Shown here in pieces: positions 4,421 through 11,840 of a stretch of DNA of 32,000 nt. A model generated the notes under the pieces. That model saw only the letters and a program-made list of their open reading frames with translations, was not told where the DNA came from and made no database searches. The stretch's first letter is position 1, and each line of letters opens with the position of its first letter. Source of the DNA: Desulfotalea psychrophila LSv54 (GTDB taxonomy: Bacteria > Desulfobacterota > Desulfobulbia > Desulfobulbales > Desulfocapsaceae); contig NC_006138.1 in NCBI RefSeq assembly GCF_000025945.1, forward strand, positions 2,220,001 through 2,252,000. The letters are read 5' to 3'. The translations under genes and the position numbers were made by a program.

Positions 4421-5782
4421 ATGAAAGAAAATTTAGTGTCTTTACAAACTAGACTGCTCTTTGTTCATGAAGAGAGGGATATTCGGCATCATTTTTGCGA
4501 GAATCTGTGTGCTGAAGATTTCTTGCTTAAAACTGTCCCTGATAGCAGGGAGGCGTTAAAGGTACTTAAAATATTCCCTGCAGATATTGTAATGCTTTGC
4601 ATTGTAGGGGACGGGTTAGCACTTCTTGATGAAATTCGTACCCACATCCCCGATGGGATTATCGTGGCCGTTGTGAATAATGACACCTCGAAAGAGGTGC
4701 TCAATGCCGTAAAGTTGGGAGGCTATAACTACGTATTAATGCCATTTGACTTTGGTGCGATCAGAGAATTAATCCGAAATAGGCTATTAAAGACTTCATT
4801 TGAGGGAAAAGAGCGCCGAAAAAGATATCGCTTTGAGAATCTCATTGGCCGAAATATTAAGATGCTTGATGTTTATCAGAAGGTAAACGACGTTGCAGTC
4901 GCCAATACCACTGTTCTTATCACCGGAGAAACAGGAACAGGCAAGGAGCTGGTCGCCGAGGCGATTCACTCTAGAAGTGCCAGGAAATCCGGCCCTCTGA
5001 TTCGGGTAAACTGTGCAGCCTTTACTGAAACGCTTATCAATAGCGAGCTGTTCGGTTATGAGAAAGGGGCCTTTTCAGGTGCGATGGCGCTGAAAAAAGG
5101 GTGTTTTGAACTGGCTGACAATGGAACTATTCTGTTGGATGAAATCGGTGACATCCCCCTTCAGACCCAGACCTGCCTCTTACGGCTCCTTGATTCAGGG
5201 TCCTTTCAACGTGTTGGTGGCGTTAAAACCCTGAAAACTAATTCACGGATTATTTGTGCCACCAACCTGGATCTTTGGCATATGGTTCAAGAGAAGCTTT
5301 TCAGGGAAGACCTCTTTTATCGGATCAATGTTGTTTCGATACATATGCCGCCCCTTCGGGAGAGAAAATCCGACATTCCCCTTTTGGCTAGGTACTTTTT
5401 AAAAAAATACTGTGGTCAAATTGGGAAGGACATCTCTCATATTCCCGACTCGACCATGGAGATGCTGCATCGTTATGACTGGCCGGGCAACGTAAGAGAG
5501 CTTGCCAACGTCATAGAACAGGCTGTCGTTTTTTGTAAAAGGAAGGAACTCGCCCTGCATAACCTGCCCTTGAAAGTGCGTGAAACCTCCTTGCCAAAGG
5601 CCTTTATCCTCAATCTTGCATCTCGCTCACTTCCGGATGCGGCATCTGCCCTGATACAGAATGTCCTTGCTGAGACGGGCTGGAACATGAAGCAGGCGGC
5701 GGAGAAGCTTGATATTGCCAGGGGCACCCTCTATAGCAAAATAAAAAAATACGGAATAGAAAAACCACGCTCTGGTGATTGA
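4421..5782 (+). CDS. Sigma-54-dependent transcriptional activator (NtrC family) with degenerate receiver domain
   Basis: 453-aa ORF with three parts: an N-terminal CheY-like domain, an AAA+ core (GETGTGKE Walker A, ILLDEIGD Walker B, GAFSGA variant of the GAFTGA sigma-54 contact loop, FREDLFYRI) and a C-terminal Fis-type HTH (AAEKLDIARGTLYSKIKKYGI). Confidence 0.9.
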   Translation: MKENLVSLQTRLLFVHEERDIRHHFCENLCAEDFLLKTVPDSREALKVLKIFPADIVMLCIVGDGLALLDEIRTHIPDGIIVAVVNNDTSKEVLNAVKLGGYNYVLMPFDFGAIRELIRNRLLKTSFEGKERRKRYRFENLIGRNIKMLDVYQKVNDVAVANTTVLITGETGTGKELVAEAIHSRSARKSGPLIRVNCAAFTETLINSELFGYEKGAFSGAMALKKGCFELADNGTILLDEIGDIPLQTQTCLLRLLDSGSFQRVGGVKTLKTNSRIICATNLDLWHMVQEKLFREDLFYRINVVSIHMPPLRERKSDIPLLARYFLKKYCGQIGKDISHIPDSTMEMLHRYDWPGNVRELANVIEQAVVFCKRKELALHNLPLKVRETSLPKAFILNLASRSLPDAASALIQNVLAETGWNMKQAAEKLDIARGTLYSKIKKYGIEKPRSGD

Positions 5783-9023: not shown

Positions 9024-11840
9024 GTGAGAAGAAAACTTTTTATCCTGCTAATTTTTCATTGCTTCTTCTCTGTTAGCGGTACAGTTTATGCCCAGAATCG
9101 TGGCGTAAATGTGAGGATGGGTGGTCAGGAACTGTTTGAGACCGCTCCAAAAAACGTTGTCACCACCATTTTTCAGGTAACGAACACCGGGGATGAAGAA
9201 CAGGAGTTTGTATCTCAGGTAAAGCTCCCCCCCGGATGGAAACTGATCACACCCTCATTTCCCTTCCGCCTGAGATCAAATGCAAGTGAGGCCAGGCTGG
9301 TCAGTTTTTTTGTCCCTCAGAGTGCTTTGGCTGGGAGATATGAGATAGTCTATCGGCTCAGCTCGGTAGGCGATTCCTCTATCAGAGATCAGGCCAGGCT
9401 GTATGTGGTAGTCACCTCTGTTACAGAACTGCAGGCTGTATTACTGCATGCCCCAGAAACTGTCATTGCAGGAGAGTCTTACGATGCCGTTTTTTCGGTG
9501 CTTAATGCTGGTAACAGAGAAAACAGCGTCCTTATCAAGGTTAAAAGTGGTCAGGACCTGCCCTATACCCTTGAGCCTGAAGAGGTTACACTTGGCCCGG
9601 CAGAATCAAAGACCGTCAGGGTGACCGTAGATACTGATGAAAAGCTCAGTAAAGGTTTTAAGCATCTGCTCCGCTTGATAGTCCAGTCAGTTGAGGATGA
9701 AAAGATGAGAGCCGAGGCACAGAGTAGTGTGAACATTATCTCCAAGACAACGGGGGAAGTAGATCAGTTTCGTAGAATATCGGCTAGGGTTGTTCTGCGG
9801 TCCTTGGGAGTACGTAATGAGGAAAACCAGAACGGCCTTCAGGTTGAGTTTGCAGGGGGAGGAAAACTAAGCGAAGATGGGGACGATGAGATTGAGTTCC
9901 TCTTCAGGGGCCCTGATACCAGTGAAGAGGTTTCAACCTTTGGTCAGCGTGATAAATATTTTGCCAGATACCGGAATAATACTACCAACGTCCGTCTGGG
10001 CGATGGTAATTACTCTCTTTCACATCTCACTGAGCAGGGTCTTTATGCCCGCGGAGCTCAGGCAGGTTGGGTTTCGGCCGATTTCGGTGTAAATGGTTAT
10101 TATATGCAAACAAGGCTGAGTAACTTGGAAGAGCAACAGTCTGCATTCCATATTGATCATCTCTTTGACGATACATACAGCATTGGTTTTAATTTACTTG
10201 ATAAGAAAAGTGATTTGGAAGATACGCAAATTGTAAGTATGCAGGGGGAATTTGAGCCTTTTGAAGATACGACCATTGAATTTGAAGGGGCATATGGAAA
10301 AAATGAGGGCGAGCATGACAGTGCATACTGGCTTAATTTGTATGGTTCCCCTGCGTTGGGCGGGAGTTATCGCCTGGAATATATTTATGCGGAACCTGAT
10401 TTTCCGGGCTATTACAGTGACCAAGAGTATATCTCAGGCAGTTTTTTCTTTCCCATAAAACAAAATCTCAGCCTGAATGTCTCTCTTAATCAGCAAAAAA
10501 ATAATTTAAATTTAGATCCCTTGCTTGATTCAGCTGCCTTAACCAGATTTGGTCAAGTAGGTTTGAGCTACAGCTTTGAAACGGGGACAACCATTGGTAT
10601 TTGGTCGCGCCTTCGCTTCCGTGAAGACCTTTTGAGTGATCCTGACTTTGACGAGAGGGAACTGACCTACACGCTTCGCTTGGGGCAGAGCTTTGAAAAG
10701 ATGTCTTTTAATATTTCGGCCGAACGGGGAAGGGTAGAAGATATACTGGAAGATCAGGTCTATGATGTGGGCACCTATGAGGGTAGTTTTTATTATGCAC
10801 CGACTGAGAATCAAAGCTATAGCACTTATCTGCGCTACAGTACCTATAACGCCTACAGTGATTCTGAGGACGACGATACTGAAGATGCTAATAGTGCGAC
10901 TCTCAATAGTGGTGTAACTGCTGCTTTCAGGATAGGTAAAGATGTCCGCGTCAATTTCAAAATTGACAGATACGATAGCCTGGGAACTGATGTCGAAGCT
11001 CGGCACGTATTTGATATGGGATTGAATTATCAACTTTTTAACGAGACTCAGATTTATGCCCATGGTCGTCAAACCGTATATGGAAGTAGTTCTGATCAGG
11101 AAGATGAAACCGCCTTTATTGTTGAATTGACAATGCCATTCGGCCTGCCTGTTGGGCGGAAACAGGGTGTCGGGATGCTTCAGGGATATGTTCGGGATAA
11201 GCAGAATGATCAACCGATTTCAGACGCAGTTCTCCGTTTGAACGGTGCTACAGCGGTAACAGATAGTGACGGTGAATTTGTTTTTCCCGCCCTGAAACCG
11301 GGGGCGTTCTATCTGGATGTTGATAGTGGAAGCATTGGCCTTGATCGGATTCCGGCGCAGAAGACTCCTATGGAGGTGACTATTAGCGGGGGCAAGGAAG
11401 AGGCCGTCAAAATAGAGATAACAACAAGTGCCACTCTTGCAGGTAAGATTATGCTTTATGGATCCGAAAGAAAAGGTGTTCTACAGGATCAATTTACCTT
11501 GTCGACAAATAAACCGACCGGCAAAGAAGACGAAGAAGAGATGGCAGAAGTCCGTGGCCTGGCCAATGTTCTTTTGGTGTTTGAGCGTAATGATGAGATA
11601 TGGAAGGTGCTTACAGATAGAAGAGGACGTTTTCGTTTTGATGACGTAAGACCCGGGGTATGGACACTGACCGTCCAGGCCAATAATTTGCCTAAATATT
11701 ATTCTCTTGAAAAGGATACCTTTAAAATTGAATTAGCACCGGGTGATAAAAAAGAGCTGCTCATAAAGGCCCTGCCTCAGAATCGCACTGTTCAGATGAT
11801 TGAACAAGGTGGTCTTTTGATTGAGGAAGATGGTAGTTAG
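9024..11840 (+). CDS. Large outer-membrane protein: signal peptide, two CARDB/NEW3-like Ig domains, beta-barrel, two carboxypeptidase-regulatory-like beta-sandwich domains (candidate usher analogue)
   Basis: 938-aa GTG-start ORF. Signal peptide MRRKLFILLIFHCFFSVSGTVYA/QN. TNTGDEEQEF..LPPGWKL and LNAGNRENSV resemble CARDB/NPCBM-associated domains. The middle roughly 450 aa is rich in Y/G/N/S/D with alternating hydrophobics and ends in the beta-signal-like AFIVELTMPF (11112-11141). GYVRDKQNDQPISDAVLRLNG..TDSDGEFVF and TDRRGRFRFDDVRPGVWTL are CarboxypepD_reg-like. Confidence 0.8.
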   Translation: MRRKLFILLIFHCFFSVSGTVYAQNRGVNVRMGGQELFETAPKNVVTTIFQVTNTGDEEQEFVSQVKLPPGWKLITPSFPFRLRSNASEARLVSFFVPQSALAGRYEIVYRLSSVGDSSIRDQARLYVVVTSVTELQAVLLHAPETVIAGESYDAVFSVLNAGNRENSVLIKVKSGQDLPYTLEPEEVTLGPAESKTVRVTVDTDEKLSKGFKHLLRLIVQSVEDEKMRAEAQSSVNIISKTTGEVDQFRRISARVVLRSLGVRNEENQNGLQVEFAGGGKLSEDGDDEIEFLFRGPDTSEEVSTFGQRDKYFARYRNNTTNVRLGDGNYSLSHLTEQGLYARGAQAGWVSADFGVNGYYMQTRLSNLEEQQSAFHIDHLFDDTYSIGFNLLDKKSDLEDTQIVSMQGEFEPFEDTTIEFEGAYGKNEGEHDSAYWLNLYGSPALGGSYRLEYIYAEPDFPGYYSDQEYISGSFFFPIKQNLSLNVSLNQQKNNLNLDPLLDSAALTRFGQVGLSYSFETGTTIGIWSRLRFREDLLSDPDFDERELTYTLRLGQSFEKMSFNISAERGRVEDILEDQVYDVGTYEGSFYYAPTENQSYSTYLRYSTYNAYSDSEDDDTEDANSATLNSGVTAAFRIGKDVRVNFKIDRYDSLGTDVEARHVFDMGLNYQLFNETQIYAHGRQTVYGSSSDQEDETAFIVELTMPFGLPVGRKQGVGMLQGYVRDKQNDQPISDAVLRLNGATAVTDSDGEFVFPALKPGAFYLDVDSGSIGLDRIPAQKTPMEVTISGGKEEAVKIEITTSATLAGKIMLYGSERKGVLQDQFTLSTNKPTGKEDEEEMAEVRGLANVLLVFERNDEIWKVLTDRRGRFRFDDVRPGVWTLTVQANNLPKYYSLEKDTFKIELAPGDKKELLIKALPQNRTVQMIEQGGLLIEEDGS

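What the first reader, a model, noticed from the sequence alone, without database searches (positions are those of the whole stretch)
4421..11840. Sigma-54-controlled envelope locus with chaperone/usher-like gene order but no classical pilus signatures
Seen directly: a sigma-54 activator gene is followed by a near-consensus -24/-12 promoter. Then come three genes for small (about 160-180 aa) signal-peptide proteins rich in T/S/V/A beta-strand sequence. Next is a 271-aa periplasmic two-domain protein, and last a 938-aa outer-membrane protein. All are co-oriented with short spacers; the last three genes are 9-17 nt apart. This order (subunit(s), periplasmic Ig-like protein, large OM barrel protein) is the logic of chaperone-usher fibres. 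By eye, however, none of the proteins shows a motif I can assign to PapD chaperones, PF00577 ushers, type 1/P/Csu (SCPU) pilins, curli, type IV or type V pilins. There are no cysteines in the two intact small subunits, no sortase or LPXTG, and no haem motifs. Each mature subunit begins with an alternating-hydrophobic strand (AVTLDVQA, VMTFTFQP, AISITVTGSW). Each ends with another (VVTFTLIDA, VIFTLAD, TLYYTVSDT). These are the kind of edge strands used in donor-strand complementation. Inference: a non-canonical secreted fibre, adhesin or surface-layer assembly system under enhancer-dependent control.
Basis: partly seen in the sequence, partly recalled or inferred. Interest (0 to 1): 0.85.

Follow-up and report, generated by a model that had tools for sequence, protein, structure and literature searches.

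The report
Usher-like envelope system with WxLIP-type chaperone
This Desulfotalea psychrophila locus belongs to a widespread, unnamed five-gene system that looks built to export small subunits through a pilus-usher-like outer-membrane pore, but its periplasmic helper is related to a Gram-positive surface protein rather than to any known pilus chaperone.

Summary
The window is Desulfotalea psychrophila LSv54. A sigma-54 activator (4421-5782) is followed by TGGCAT-N5-TTGCT (6156-6171). Next come subunit A plus a strong terminator, subunit B, subunit C (broken by a 1-nt insertion), the 271-aa D and the 938-aa E. The set [A/B x1-3]-C-D-E recurs in 27 loci from at least seven phyla, and nothing else is co-conserved.

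No component matches a classical pilus family: no PapD, PF00577 usher, fimbrial, SCPU or DUF4402 hit. Two links were found.
- D is a distant but significant homologue, across both Ig-like domains, of Gram-positive WxL-interacting proteins (DUF916+DUF3324). The evidence is PDB 9i25/9i1y at E 4e-7 and hhalign at 96.5%. D lacks their membrane anchor.
- The AlphaFold model of E (pLDDT 81.5) has two N-terminal sandwiches, about 26 barrel strands with no plug insertion, and two C-terminal sandwiches. Its best structural matches are the FimD/PapC ushers (E 1e-16 to 5e-11), though TM-scores are low.

Best reading: a chaperone-usher-like assembly pathway for a surface fibre or layer. Strand complementation and polymerisation remain untested, because the subunit model was poor. 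A subunit-to-WxL relationship is unproven. The literature searched holds nothing on this diderm system.

The parts
4421..5782 (+). Sigma-54 enhancer-binding activator: a degenerate receiver domain, an AAA+ sigma-54 interaction domain carrying GAFSGA, and a Fis-type HTH.
   Evidence: Pfam gives Sigma54_activat E 6e-65, AAA_lid_14 5e-27 and HTH_8 4e-12. Response_reg scores only 27.4 bits, below its 30.2 cutoff. Aligned with orthologues, the receiver has HE in place of the acidic DD. It has C plus a 3-residue deletion at the phospho-acceptor Asp, N in place of T, and M in place of K. Orthologous activators lie next to the system in 10 of 27 loci.
5994..6050 (+). Two candidate activator-binding sites of the TGT-N10-ACA type: TGTCGTACTCTCAACA (5994-6009) and TGTCGTAAATTGAACA (6035-6050). 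They are 41 bp apart and lie 105-160 bp upstream of the -24/-12 element.
   Evidence: Found as direct-repeat family D4. They are the only two TGTCGT-N6-AACA matches in the window, but the pattern was derived from these same sites, so that count is circular. The exact pattern is not conserved in related loci. A function as enhancer is inferred.
6156..6171 (+). Sigma-54 -24/-12 promoter TGGCAT-N5-TTGCT, 70 nt upstream of the ATG of gene A.
   Evidence: It is the only match in the window. The same motif lies upstream of the first subunit gene in L001, L002, L011, L014 (two sites) and L022.
6241..6789 (+). Subunit A (182 aa), an A/B-type small secreted beta-rich protein and the presumed major subunit.
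   Evidence: It has a signal peptide and no cysteine. It is the first gene after the promoter and is followed by a terminator. It belongs to the A/B family, found in 23 loci. It has no Pfam, NCBIfam or PDB sequence match. The AF2 monomer model is poor (pLDDT 57), with residues 32-76 the least confident.
6830..6868 (+). Intrinsic terminator after gene A: a 13-bp stem with 8 G-C pairs and a T-rich tail.
   Evidence: Found. The perfect 11-nt inverted repeat at 6832-6842 / 6846-6856 was found. A role as an attenuator that sets the ratio of A to B-E is inferred.
7170..7655 (+). Subunit B (161 aa), a second A/B-type subunit and the better conserved paralogue.
   Evidence: phmmer E values reach 1e-44 to orthologues in Desulfobacterota loci. 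It aligns in A4 with the shared C-terminal TVT[FWYL]T[LI]x[DE] motif.
7693..8182 (+). Subunit C (about 162 aa if repaired), a distinct single-copy subunit type. In this genome it is interrupted by a 1-nt insertion near 7985-7990.
   Evidence: The two reading frames are shown. Intact 150-174-aa orthologues lie directly upstream of D in most loci. Its C-terminal half is homologous to A/B (hhalign 97%, E 1e-10).
8199..9014 (+). D (271 aa), a soluble periplasmic protein with two Ig-like domains. It is a distant homologue of the Gram-positive WxL-interacting protein (DUF916+DUF3324) but lacks its C-terminal transmembrane helix. It is the proposed chaperone.
   Evidence: The family profile hits PDB 9i25_C and 9i1y_A (EfmWxLIP1) at E 4e-7 over profile positions 42-270. 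hhalign against nine annotated WxLIPs gives 96.5%, E 8e-10, over 233 columns. D is the most conserved protein of the locus, 29-62% identical across phyla. There is no PapD signal.
9024..11840 (+). E (938 aa), an outer-membrane protein. It has a signal peptide, two N-terminal beta-sandwiches, an approximately 26-strand barrel (249-712) and two C-terminal CarboxypepD_reg sandwiches. It is the proposed usher-like translocon.
   Evidence: The AF2 model has pLDDT 81.5, with the barrel mostly in the mid-80s to mid-90s. The top ten Foldseek PDB hits are FimD/PapC at E 1e-16 to 5e-11. Pfam gives CarboxypepD_reg E 4e-15 and an Ig-like domain at 150-235. Forty-six homologues were found in 5.8e9 proteins, with identities of 23-64%.

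Best explanation
This is a self-contained, Sec-dependent, chaperone-usher-like pathway that builds a surface fibre or layer from small beta-sandwich subunits.

Proposed sequence of events:
1. The sigma-54 activator drives the -24/-12 promoter at 6156. Gene A, the presumed major subunit, is made in excess because a terminator follows it. B, C, D and E are expressed by read-through or from their own promoter.
2. A, B, C, D and E each carry a signal peptide and enter the periplasm.
3. D captures the subunits. D is a soluble two-Ig-domain protein homologous to Gram-positive WxLIP. It is proposed to supply a beta-strand that completes the subunit fold, as AlphaFold predicts for WxLIP bound to WxL.
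4. D delivers the subunits to the periplasmic domains of E.
5. E passes folded subunits to the surface through its barrel of about 26 strands. There the subunits join one another through their conserved N- and C-terminal edge strands.
6. C is single-copy and better conserved than A/B. It would act as initiator, adaptor or anchor.

What is shown: gene content, co-conservation, homology of D to WxLIP, the architecture of E and its best fold matches, and the sigma-54 elements.

What is inferred: the chaperone role of D, translocation through E, strand exchange, and polymerisation.
For: - Co-conservation. The conserved set [A/B x1-3]-C-D-E occurs in 27 loci from Desulfobacterota, Planctomycetota, Verrucomicrobiota, Bdellovibrionota, Krumholzibacteriia, Eisenbacteria and Bacteroidota. 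No other gene family is co-conserved: no ATPase, sortase or peptidase.
- E model. It has an N-terminal sandwich pair, 26 consecutive strands and a C-terminal sandwich pair. Periplasmic turns are short (2-6 residues) and outer loops longer (up to 14). An even strand count puts both sandwich pairs in the periplasm, as in ushers.
- E fold matches. Foldseek ranks FimD and PapC first (E 1e-16 to 5e-11). Other large barrels (LptD, MtrB, TonB-dependent receptors) follow at 1e-8 to 1e-7.
- D homology. D matches WxLIP over both domains. AlphaFold2 predicts that WxLIP donates a strand that completes the WxL beta-sandwich (PMC10599100). A WxL-WxLIP co-structure is in the PDB (9i25).
- Synteny with Gram-positive loci. 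There, one to three small WxL genes sit directly upstream of the WxLIP gene.
- Conservation gradient. D is more conserved than E and C, which are more conserved than A/B. This is the pattern expected for machinery versus exposed subunits.
- Shared subunit C-terminus. A/B and C share a homologous C-terminal half that ends in a conserved strand 1-3 residues from the C-terminus.
- Expression layout. A terminator follows the first subunit gene.
- Weak structural hint. The top 50 Foldseek hits of the poor A model include several donor-strand fibre subunits (CanA, FimA/F/G, CsuA/B, Saci_0406). None is significant.
- Independent label. One close D homologue is labelled 'P pilus assembly chaperone PapD' by JGI (P0419).
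Against: - There is no sequence-level relation to PapD-type chaperones or to PF00577 ushers.
- TM-scores between E and the ushers are low (0.27-0.38). By TM-score the barrel alone resembles MtrB best (TMt 0.46), so the lead in E-value may come largely from domain order.
- The E barrel has no inserted plug domain, so gating is unexplained.
- The subunit model is low-confidence, and no complementation groove was demonstrated.
- A subunit-to-WxL homology was not detected.
- WxL/WxLIP systems are described as peptidoglycan-bound surface complexes, not polymers (PMC10599100).
- There are no experimental data for any member.
- In this strain C is frameshifted.
Confidence: 0.55

Rival explanations
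1. The system forms a non-polymeric surface complex of the WxL type. E exports A, B and C, or simply anchors them. They stay on the cell surface as a discrete complex bound non-covalently with D and E, forming an adhesin platform or a sparse surface layer rather than a fibre.
For: D belongs to the WxLIP superfamily. WxL/WxLIP loci are described as surface platforms, not filaments (PMC10599100). Three distinct subunit types occur in fixed order, with C always single-copy. No groove or polymer has been demonstrated.
Against: A is set up for excess expression by a terminator. The number of A/B paralogues varies from one to three. The subunits carry conserved terminal edge strands. All three fit a polymer better. 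D lacks the membrane anchor that would hold a platform in place.
Confidence: 0.2
2. The system is a periplasmic envelope scaffold that is not secreted. A, B and C together with D bind peptidoglycan, as proposed for the WxL and DUF916 domains. E ties this complex to the outer membrane through its periplasmic sandwich domains, so the barrel serves as an anchor and not as a pore.
For: WxL and the DUF916 domain are proposed to bind peptidoglycan (PMC10599100). All four sandwich domains of E are predicted to be periplasmic. No plug or gate is evident.
Against: A barrel of about 26 strands is far larger than an anchor needs. The best fold matches are translocating ushers. Homology of the subunits to WxL is not established.
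Confidence: 0.1
3. The system is an uptake or channel complex. E is a large-pore outer-membrane channel, and A, B, C and D are substrate-binding accessory proteins. This echoes the early proposal that the Gram-positive csc/WxL clusters are cell-surface complexes for carbohydrate use.
For: E carries CarboxypepD_reg domains, as many Bacteroidota TonB-dependent receptors do. TonB-dependent receptors and porins appear among the fold hits at about 1e-7. Some homologues have precomputed Porin_4 hits. The csc hypothesis is in the title and abstract of PMC1534035.
Against: E has no plug or TonB-box domain, and its CarboxypepD_reg domains are C-terminal rather than N-terminal. No transporter, hydrolase or catabolic gene is co-conserved. 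Neighbouring genes differ between loci and are housekeeping genes here.
Confidence: 0.07

Closest known systems
Classical and archaic chaperone-usher pili (Fim, Pap, Csu): PapD-type chaperone plus PF00577 usher
   Same: - The gene order is subunits, then a two-Ig-domain periplasmic protein, then a large outer-membrane protein. It is closest to csuA/B-A-B-C-D (from my own knowledge of the csu operon).
- No ATPase is encoded.
- E has the usher layout of a periplasmic N-terminal domain, a large barrel and two periplasmic C-terminal sandwiches. FimD and PapC are its best PDB fold matches.
- The first subunit gene is followed by a terminator.
   Different: - There is no PapD_N/PapD_C, usher, Fimbrial, SCPU or DUF4402 sequence signal. 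hhalign against FimC/SfmC and FimD/SfmD is null.
- The barrel has about 26 strands rather than the ushers' 24 (the figure 24 is from my own knowledge). It has no plug domain inserted in it.
- E has two N-terminal sandwiches instead of one N-terminal domain.
- The subunits lack cysteines.
- The operon is under sigma-54 control.
Gram-positive WxL / csc surface-protein clusters (WxL proteins + WxLIP/DUF916-DUF3324 + small LPXTG protein)
   Same: - D is homologous to WxLIP across both domains.
- Small secreted beta-rich proteins are encoded directly upstream of it, and as many as three in Enterococcus raffinosus.
- The subunit C-termini, TVT[FWY]TLxD (TVTWTLTE in planctomycete members), resemble the distal WxL motif TLTWNLxxTP.
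- WxLIP is predicted to complete the WxL fold by inserting a strand (PMC10599100).
   Different: - The hosts here are diderm.
- D lacks the C-terminal transmembrane helix.
- An outer-membrane barrel protein, E, is added.
- There is no LPXTG protein, no sortase and no large multidomain WxL protein.
- The subunits do not match Pfam WxL or the WxL chain 9i25_A. Profile-profile scores are only 26-44%.
Large monomeric outer-membrane barrels that enclose or pass folded partners (MtrB, LptD)
   Same: E's strand count matches the 26 strands of MtrB and LptD (those counts are from my own knowledge). MtrB gives the highest TM-score for the barrel (TMt 0.46), and LptD also appears among the hits.
   Different: A and B contain no cysteine, so they carry no CXXCH haem motif. 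D and E were not scanned. There is no LptE-like or MtrA-like partner. E's flanking sandwich domains and its gene neighbours differ from those systems.

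Membership tests
Chaperone-usher pathway (classical/archaic) | A periplasmic chaperone of the PapD family (PF00345 + PF02753). | tested here: not met
   Pfam scans of D and of 21 family members give no PapD_N or PapD_C hit at E<=0.1. hhalign of the D family against FimC+SfmC gives 3% probability. One JGI record labels a homologue 'PapD', but that label is an annotation and not a test.
Chaperone-usher pathway (classical/archaic) | An outer-membrane usher of family PF00577: a 24-strand barrel with an inserted plug domain, one N-terminal domain and two C-terminal domains. | tested here: inconclusive
   Sequence level: no PF00577 hit, and hhalign against FimD+SfmD gives 0.4%. 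Fold level: FimD and PapC are the top Foldseek hits (E 1e-16 to 5e-11), but TM-scores are only 0.27-0.38. The model has about 26 consecutive strands with no inserted plug domain. The architecture is analogous. Family membership is not shown.
Chaperone-usher pathway (classical/archaic) | Pilin subunits with an incomplete Ig fold that is completed by donor-strand complementation or exchange. | not testable with these tools
   No Fimbrial, SCPU or DUF4402 hit was found. The AF2 monomer of A has pLDDT 57, and its N-terminal third is unplaced.
Chaperone-usher pathway (classical/archaic) | An operon ordered subunit(s), chaperone, usher, with no cytoplasmic energy source. | tested here: met
   The order A-B-C-D-E is conserved, and only these four families are co-conserved.
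WxL / csc surface-protein cluster | A WxLIP protein with DUF916 (PGBD) followed by DUF3324 (HBD). | tested here: met
   The D-family profile hits EfmWxLIP1 (9i25_C, 9i1y_A) at E 4e-7 over both domains. hhalign against nine annotated 'DUF916 and DUF3324' proteins gives 96.5%, E 8e-10, over 233 columns. Individual members give only sub-threshold Pfam hits.
WxL / csc surface-protein cluster | A C-terminal transmembrane helix on WxLIP. | tested here: not met
   Most D-family members, including the window's D, end within a few residues of the second Ig domain. The hhalign match stops at template column 297 of 351, before the region that holds the helix. Most homologues are 260-280 aa.
WxL / csc surface-protein cluster | At least two WxL-domain proteins (PF13731) carrying the dual Trp-x-Leu motifs. 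| tested here: inconclusive
   None of 36 A/B members gives a Pfam WxL hit. Neither profile hits the WxL chain 9i25_A. hhalign gives A/B against WxL 44% over 18 columns, C against WxL 26% over 28 C-terminal columns, and an enlarged A/B profile 43%. Only the C-terminal motif resembles WxL, and it is a literal WTL in planctomycete members.
WxL / csc surface-protein cluster | A monoderm host with a small LPXTG protein or sortase linkage. | tested here: not met
   Reading the translations of A-E shows no LPXTG motif. No sortase or LPXTG gene family is co-conserved. The hosts are diderm phyla.
Sigma-54-dependent operon | An enhancer-binding protein with an AAA+ sigma-54 interaction domain, plus a GG-N10-GC (-24/-12) promoter. 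| tested here: met
   Sigma54_activat scores E 6e-65, and a GAFSGA loop is present in the translation. TGGCAT-N5-TTGCT lies at 6156 and is conserved in related loci. Transcription itself was not tested.

The most novel reading that the evidence does not exclude
This locus represents an ancient, phylogenetically broad class of strand-complementation surface-assembly systems that arose independently of the PapD/FimD chaperone-usher lineage. Its chaperone is the WxLIP fold. In monoderms WxLIP is tethered to the membrane and handles WxL proteins. In diderms it is soluble and feeds an approximately 26-strand, plug-less, usher-like translocon. If so, Gram-positive WxL loci would need to be re-read as chaperone-assisted assembly systems. 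It would also add a new outer-membrane secretion and assembly route, present in Desulfobacterota, Planctomycetota, Verrucomicrobiota, Bdellovibrionota and Bacteroidota, including Elizabethkingia and Chryseobacterium.
Probability: 0.4. Interest if true: 0.85.

Novelty: new variant of a known kind. Interest (0 to 1): 0.72.

Why it matters
Chaperone-usher pili are the textbook case of energy-free fibre assembly at the outer membrane. As far as I know, every known class uses a PapD-type chaperone and a PF00577 usher.

Here the same operon logic and an usher-like outer-membrane architecture are built around a different chaperone lineage, WxLIP. That lineage was previously described almost entirely in Lactobacillales and Bacillales. 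If confirmed, three things follow.
- It would define a new assembly pathway found in many environmental phyla and in the cultured, clinically relevant genera Elizabethkingia and Chryseobacterium.
- It would suggest a mechanism for the poorly understood WxL loci of enterococci, listeriae and lactobacilli.
- It would provide an evolutionary bridge between monoderm and diderm surface-assembly systems.

The D family alone has about 480 representative clusters at E<=1e-30 and about 960 at E<=1e-10. Every source name seen in the two lists of best hits is 'hypothetical protein', apart from one 'PapD' label.

Tried and rejected
- Direct Pfam and NCBIfam scans of A, B, C, D and E gave no family for A, B or C. 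D and the N-terminal part of E gave only sub-threshold hits.
- phmmer of A, D and E against PDB sequences found nothing meaningful.
- Profiles of the A/B and C families against the PDB, and Pfam scans of 36 A/B members, gave no WxL, pilin, SCPU, DUF4402 or TasA hit.
- The idea that the subunits are WxL domains was tested by hhalign against ten annotated small WxL proteins taken from plasmids. It was tested again with an enlarged, non-redundant A/B profile of 64 sequences. Probabilities were 26-44% over short stretches, so homology was not accepted.
- D as a PapD-like chaperone and E as a PF00577 usher were rejected at the sequence level.
- E's N-terminal domains as copies of D's DUF916 domain gave only 44-48% for N2, so this was not accepted.
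- Looking up the exact D protein in assemblies found no record.
- A first locus search with a 14-sequence alignment failed because no block was conserved enough. It was repeated with 6 sequences.
- The AF2 model of subunit A was too poor (pLDDT 57) for a reliable fold search.
- An electron-conduit (MtrB-like) reading was only weakly addressed. A and B have no cysteine, so they have no haem motif. D and E were not scanned for CXXCH.
- The exact pattern of the candidate enhancer sites is not conserved in related loci. My first pattern there had the wrong spacer length.
- Literature searches found nothing on a diderm version or on this locus. I searched for the locus tags DP1959-DP1964, WxLIP, DUF916, DUF3324, WxL with donor strand, and chaperone-usher with Planctomycetes or Bacteroidota.

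Full report
**Source and anatomy.** The 938-aa protein is identical to entry 177439.DP1964, so the window is Desulfotalea psychrophila LSv54. The block lies between leuC/leuD-like genes upstream and a DnaJ/CbpA-like gene plus mutL downstream. On the + strand it contains, in order:
- a sigma-54 activator (4421-5782);
- two TGT-N10-ACA repeats (5994-6009 and 6035-6050);
- a -24/-12 element, TGGCATGGGTATTGCT (6156-6171);
- gene A (6241-6789, 182 aa);
- a strong intrinsic terminator (6830-6858);
- gene B (7170-7655, 161 aa);
- gene C (7693-8182, with a frame change near 7985-7990);
- gene D (8199-9014, 271 aa);
- gene E (9024-11840, 938 aa).

All five structural proteins begin with signal-peptide-like sequences. 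A and B contain no cysteine. The one addition is that A is separated from B-E by 380 nt and a terminator.

**Is it more than chance?** The promoter motif alone is only mildly unexpected in 32 kb (0.13 expected; 12% of shuffles give a match). The comparative evidence is strong.
- Searching 185,579 species genomes with E alone returned 27 loci. They come from Desulfobacterota, Planctomycetota (Phycisphaerae, Pirellulales), Verrucomicrobiota, Bdellovibrionota, Krumholzibacteriia, Eisenbacteria and Bacteroidota.
- phmmer and jackhmmer searches of all six-frame ORFs of these loci show a D homologue immediately upstream of E in 25 loci. A C homologue lies upstream of D, and one to three A/B-type genes lie upstream of that. 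Bacteroidota use the order A-D-E-A'-C.
- All-against-all clustering finds no other co-conserved family apart from the activator, which is present in 10 loci. The remaining clusters are antisense shadow ORFs.
- The TGGCAY-N5-TTGCW motif recurs upstream of the first subunit gene in L001, L002, L011, L014 (a planctomycete, two sites) and L022 (Krumholzibacteriia). No such site lies upstream of the subunit gene in Elizabethkingia.

**The frameshift in C.** Every other locus that covers C whole encodes an intact protein of 150-174 aa. Removing one A from the run near 7985-7990 restores a protein 68% identical to the L001 orthologue. In this genome sequence C is therefore either a pseudogene or a sequencing error.

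**What the proteins are.**

*Subunits A, B and C.* They have no Pfam, NCBIfam or PDB sequence match, whether searched singly or as family profiles. A and B are paralogues. C is a separate family whose C-terminal half is homologous to A/B (hhalign 97%, E 1e-10). All of them end with a conserved strand 1-3 residues from the C-terminus. In A/B it is TVT[FWYL]T[LI]x[DE], and in C it is YYTVxD. All start the mature chain with a conserved alternating strand. The A/B family is abundant in Chryseobacterium, Elizabethkingia and Lutibacter, where the members are 192-aa 'hypothetical proteins' with no Pfam domain.

*Protein D.* D is the best-conserved protein of the locus, 29-62% identical across phyla.
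- A profile of 21 D homologues hits the solved structure of Enterococcus faecium WxLIP1 (9i25_C, 9i1y_A) at E 4e-7 over both domains.
- I collected nine annotated 'DUF916 and DUF3324 domain-containing' proteins and ten small WxL proteins from Gram-positive plasmids.
- hhalign of the D family against those WxLIPs gives 96.5% probability, E 8e-10, over 233 columns.
- The control against FimC+SfmC gives 3%.
- D stops right after the second Ig-like domain, so it lacks the transmembrane helix that anchors WxLIPs.
- An exhaustive HMMER scan of 1.84 billion representatives finds 478 clusters at E<=1e-30 and 960 at E<=1e-10. Nearly all are about 270 aa.
- Every source name seen is 'hypothetical protein', apart from one JGI label of 'PapD'.

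*Protein E.* With 40 homologues as the alignment, AlphaFold2 gives a good model (pLDDT 81.5, with the barrel mostly in the mid-80s to mid-90s).
- Layout: signal peptide; two beta-sandwiches (28-130 and 136-239); 26 consecutive strands (249-712); two CarboxypepD_reg sandwiches (717-814 and 840-918).
- In the barrel, short turns (2-6 residues) alternate with longer loops (up to 14 residues). This fits periplasmic turns and external loops.
- The strand count is even, so both sandwich pairs fall on the periplasmic side. This is my inference from the DSSP string.
- No domain is inserted within the barrel, so there is no usher-type plug.
- In Foldseek against the PDB, the ten best hits are all FimD or PapC (E 1e-16 to 5e-11). 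LptD, MtrB and TonB-dependent receptors follow at 1e-8 to 1e-7.
- TM-scores are low (0.27-0.38), and the barrel alone is closest to MtrB (TMt 0.46). The lead of the ushers therefore probably reflects the shared order of sandwich, barrel and two sandwiches.
- At the sequence level E is unrelated to FimD/SfmD (0.4%).

*The activator.* It has the AAA+ domain, a GAFSGA loop and a Fis-type HTH. Aligned with orthologues, its receiver domain has lost the acidic pair, the phospho-acceptor Asp, the Thr and the Lys. In this species it cannot be a conventional phosphorylated response regulator.

**Mechanism proposed.** The content is several small secreted subunits, one conserved soluble two-Ig-domain protein, and one very large barrel with periplasmic sandwich domains, with no energy source. 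This is what a chaperone-usher-type pathway needs. The proposed steps are:
1. D binds newly exported subunits in the periplasm.
2. D delivers them to the periplasmic domains of E.
3. Folded subunits pass through the barrel of about 26 strands.
4. The subunits assemble outside.

The link to WxLIP suggests a concrete chaperone mechanism. AlphaFold2 predicts that a WxLIP hairpin becomes a strand that completes the WxL beta-sandwich (PMC10599100). A WxL-WxLIP co-structure now exists as 9i25.

Three further observations fit machinery plus exposed polymer subunits:
- the gradient of conservation, with D above E and C, and these above A/B;
- the variable number of A/B paralogues against a single C;
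- the terminator after A.

The shown steps are gene content, synteny, homology of D, the architecture of E and the promoter elements. The chaperone function, translocation, strand exchange and polymerisation are all inferred. The one subunit model I could make was poor (pLDDT 57, N-terminal third unplaced). Its Foldseek list is not significant, although CanA, FimA/F/G, CsuA/B and Saci_0406 appear in it.

**Rivals.**
- The subunits form a discrete WxL-like surface platform rather than a polymer.
- The whole assembly is a periplasmic, peptidoglycan-associated scaffold anchored by E.
- E is a channel and the small proteins bind ligands.

The first rival is hard to separate from the best explanation without structures or microscopy. 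The second is disfavoured by the size of the barrel, and the third by the lack of any co-conserved transport or catabolic gene.

**Comparison and membership.** The system works like a chaperone-usher pathway but fails the sequence-defined membership tests for it. There is no PapD chaperone, no PF00577 usher, no plug domain and no known pilin family. It shares one defining component, WxLIP, with Gram-positive WxL clusters. It lacks their membrane anchor, their LPXTG partner and any demonstrable WxL domain. The C-terminal motif is suggestive (TVTWTLTE in planctomycete members against TLTWNLxxTP in WxL). However, hhalign gives only 26-44%. I therefore file it as a new variant of the chaperone-usher kind, with a WxLIP-lineage chaperone.

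**Novelty and caveats.** Full-text searches for the locus tags, WxLIP, DUF916, DUF3324, WxL with donor strand, and chaperone-usher with Planctomycetes or Bacteroidota returned nothing on a diderm system of this type. That library is incomplete, so prior description elsewhere cannot be excluded. Everything here is computational. In D. psychrophila itself the locus may be defective, because C is frameshifted and the activator's receiver is degenerate. The same gene set occurs in Elizabethkingia anophelis as A-D-E-A'-C, with a weak precomputed WxLIP_HBD hit on D. That gives a cultivable organism in which to test it.

Noticed in passing
window 13528-15413 (break near 14395-14415): The mutL gene is split into two overlapping ORFs. 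After ...LLEVPPEE the conserved MutL motif DVNVHPAKHEIRF continues in another frame, which implies a 1-nt deletion. Together with the 1-nt insertion in gene C, this suggests either a mismatch-repair-deficient (mutator) strain or sequencing errors in this genome.
   Followed up: partly
window 4421-4800: The receiver domain of the sigma-54 activator has lost every phosphorylation residue: DD to HE, the acceptor Asp to Cys with a 3-residue deletion, Thr to Asn, and Lys to Met. Orthologues in related loci keep them. The regulator is probably no longer controlled by a histidine kinase in this species.
   Followed up: yes
L001 6639-6926 (also L002, L003, L010): In Desulfobacteraceae relatives, a 70-aa ORF sits between the activator and subunit A. 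It consists only of the activator's C-terminal Fis-type HTH (65% identical over 55 aa). It is preceded by its own TGGCAY-N5-TTGCW motif. It could be a competitor for the enhancer sites. It is absent from the window.
   Followed up: partly
window 11784-11840 (E residues 921-938): The C-terminal tail of E is conserved across the family (consensus around LPKKRxIxIIExGxTLIEEE) but is modelled with pLDDT below 50. It is an alternating-hydrophobic peptide that might dock as a strand on a partner or in the barrel.
   Followed up: no
window 9900-9960 (E residues 294-312): The segment FRGPD...FGQRDxY between barrel strands 3 and 4 holds a dense cluster of conserved residues. It is also the longest predicted external loop (14 residues). 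It is a candidate lumen-facing latch in a barrel that has no plug domain.
   Followed up: no
L032 1107-4921 (Enterococcus raffinosus plasmid NZ_CP081847.1): This Gram-positive WxL locus has the order LPXTG protein, three WxL genes, then WxLIP. That mirrors the three-subunits-then-D order of the window. A class A sortase gene follows.
   Followed up: partly
L040 8001-13269 (Elizabethkingia anophelis CP172272.1): A cultured opportunistic pathogen carries the full system: a 192-aa subunit, a 266-aa D homologue, an E homologue (828 aa as called in L040, 920 aa in L039), a 179-aa subunit and a 169-aa subunit. No sigma-54 motif lies upstream of the first subunit gene. Many Chryseobacterium species carry homologues of the subunit.
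   Followed up: partly
window 9420-9760 (E residues 134-245): The second N-terminal sandwich of E shows weak profile similarity to the DUF916 domain of D and of WxLIPs (hhalign 44-48%). The two N-terminal sandwiches look like a tandem duplication (77%), and so do the two C-terminal ones (97.7%).
   Followed up: partly
window 7098-7177: No sigma-54 consensus lies between the terminator and gene B. Only weak sigma-70-like hexamers are present (TTAACC-18-TATCAT and TTAACA-18-GAAAAT). How B-E are transcribed is therefore open: by read-through or from their own promoter.
   Followed up: no
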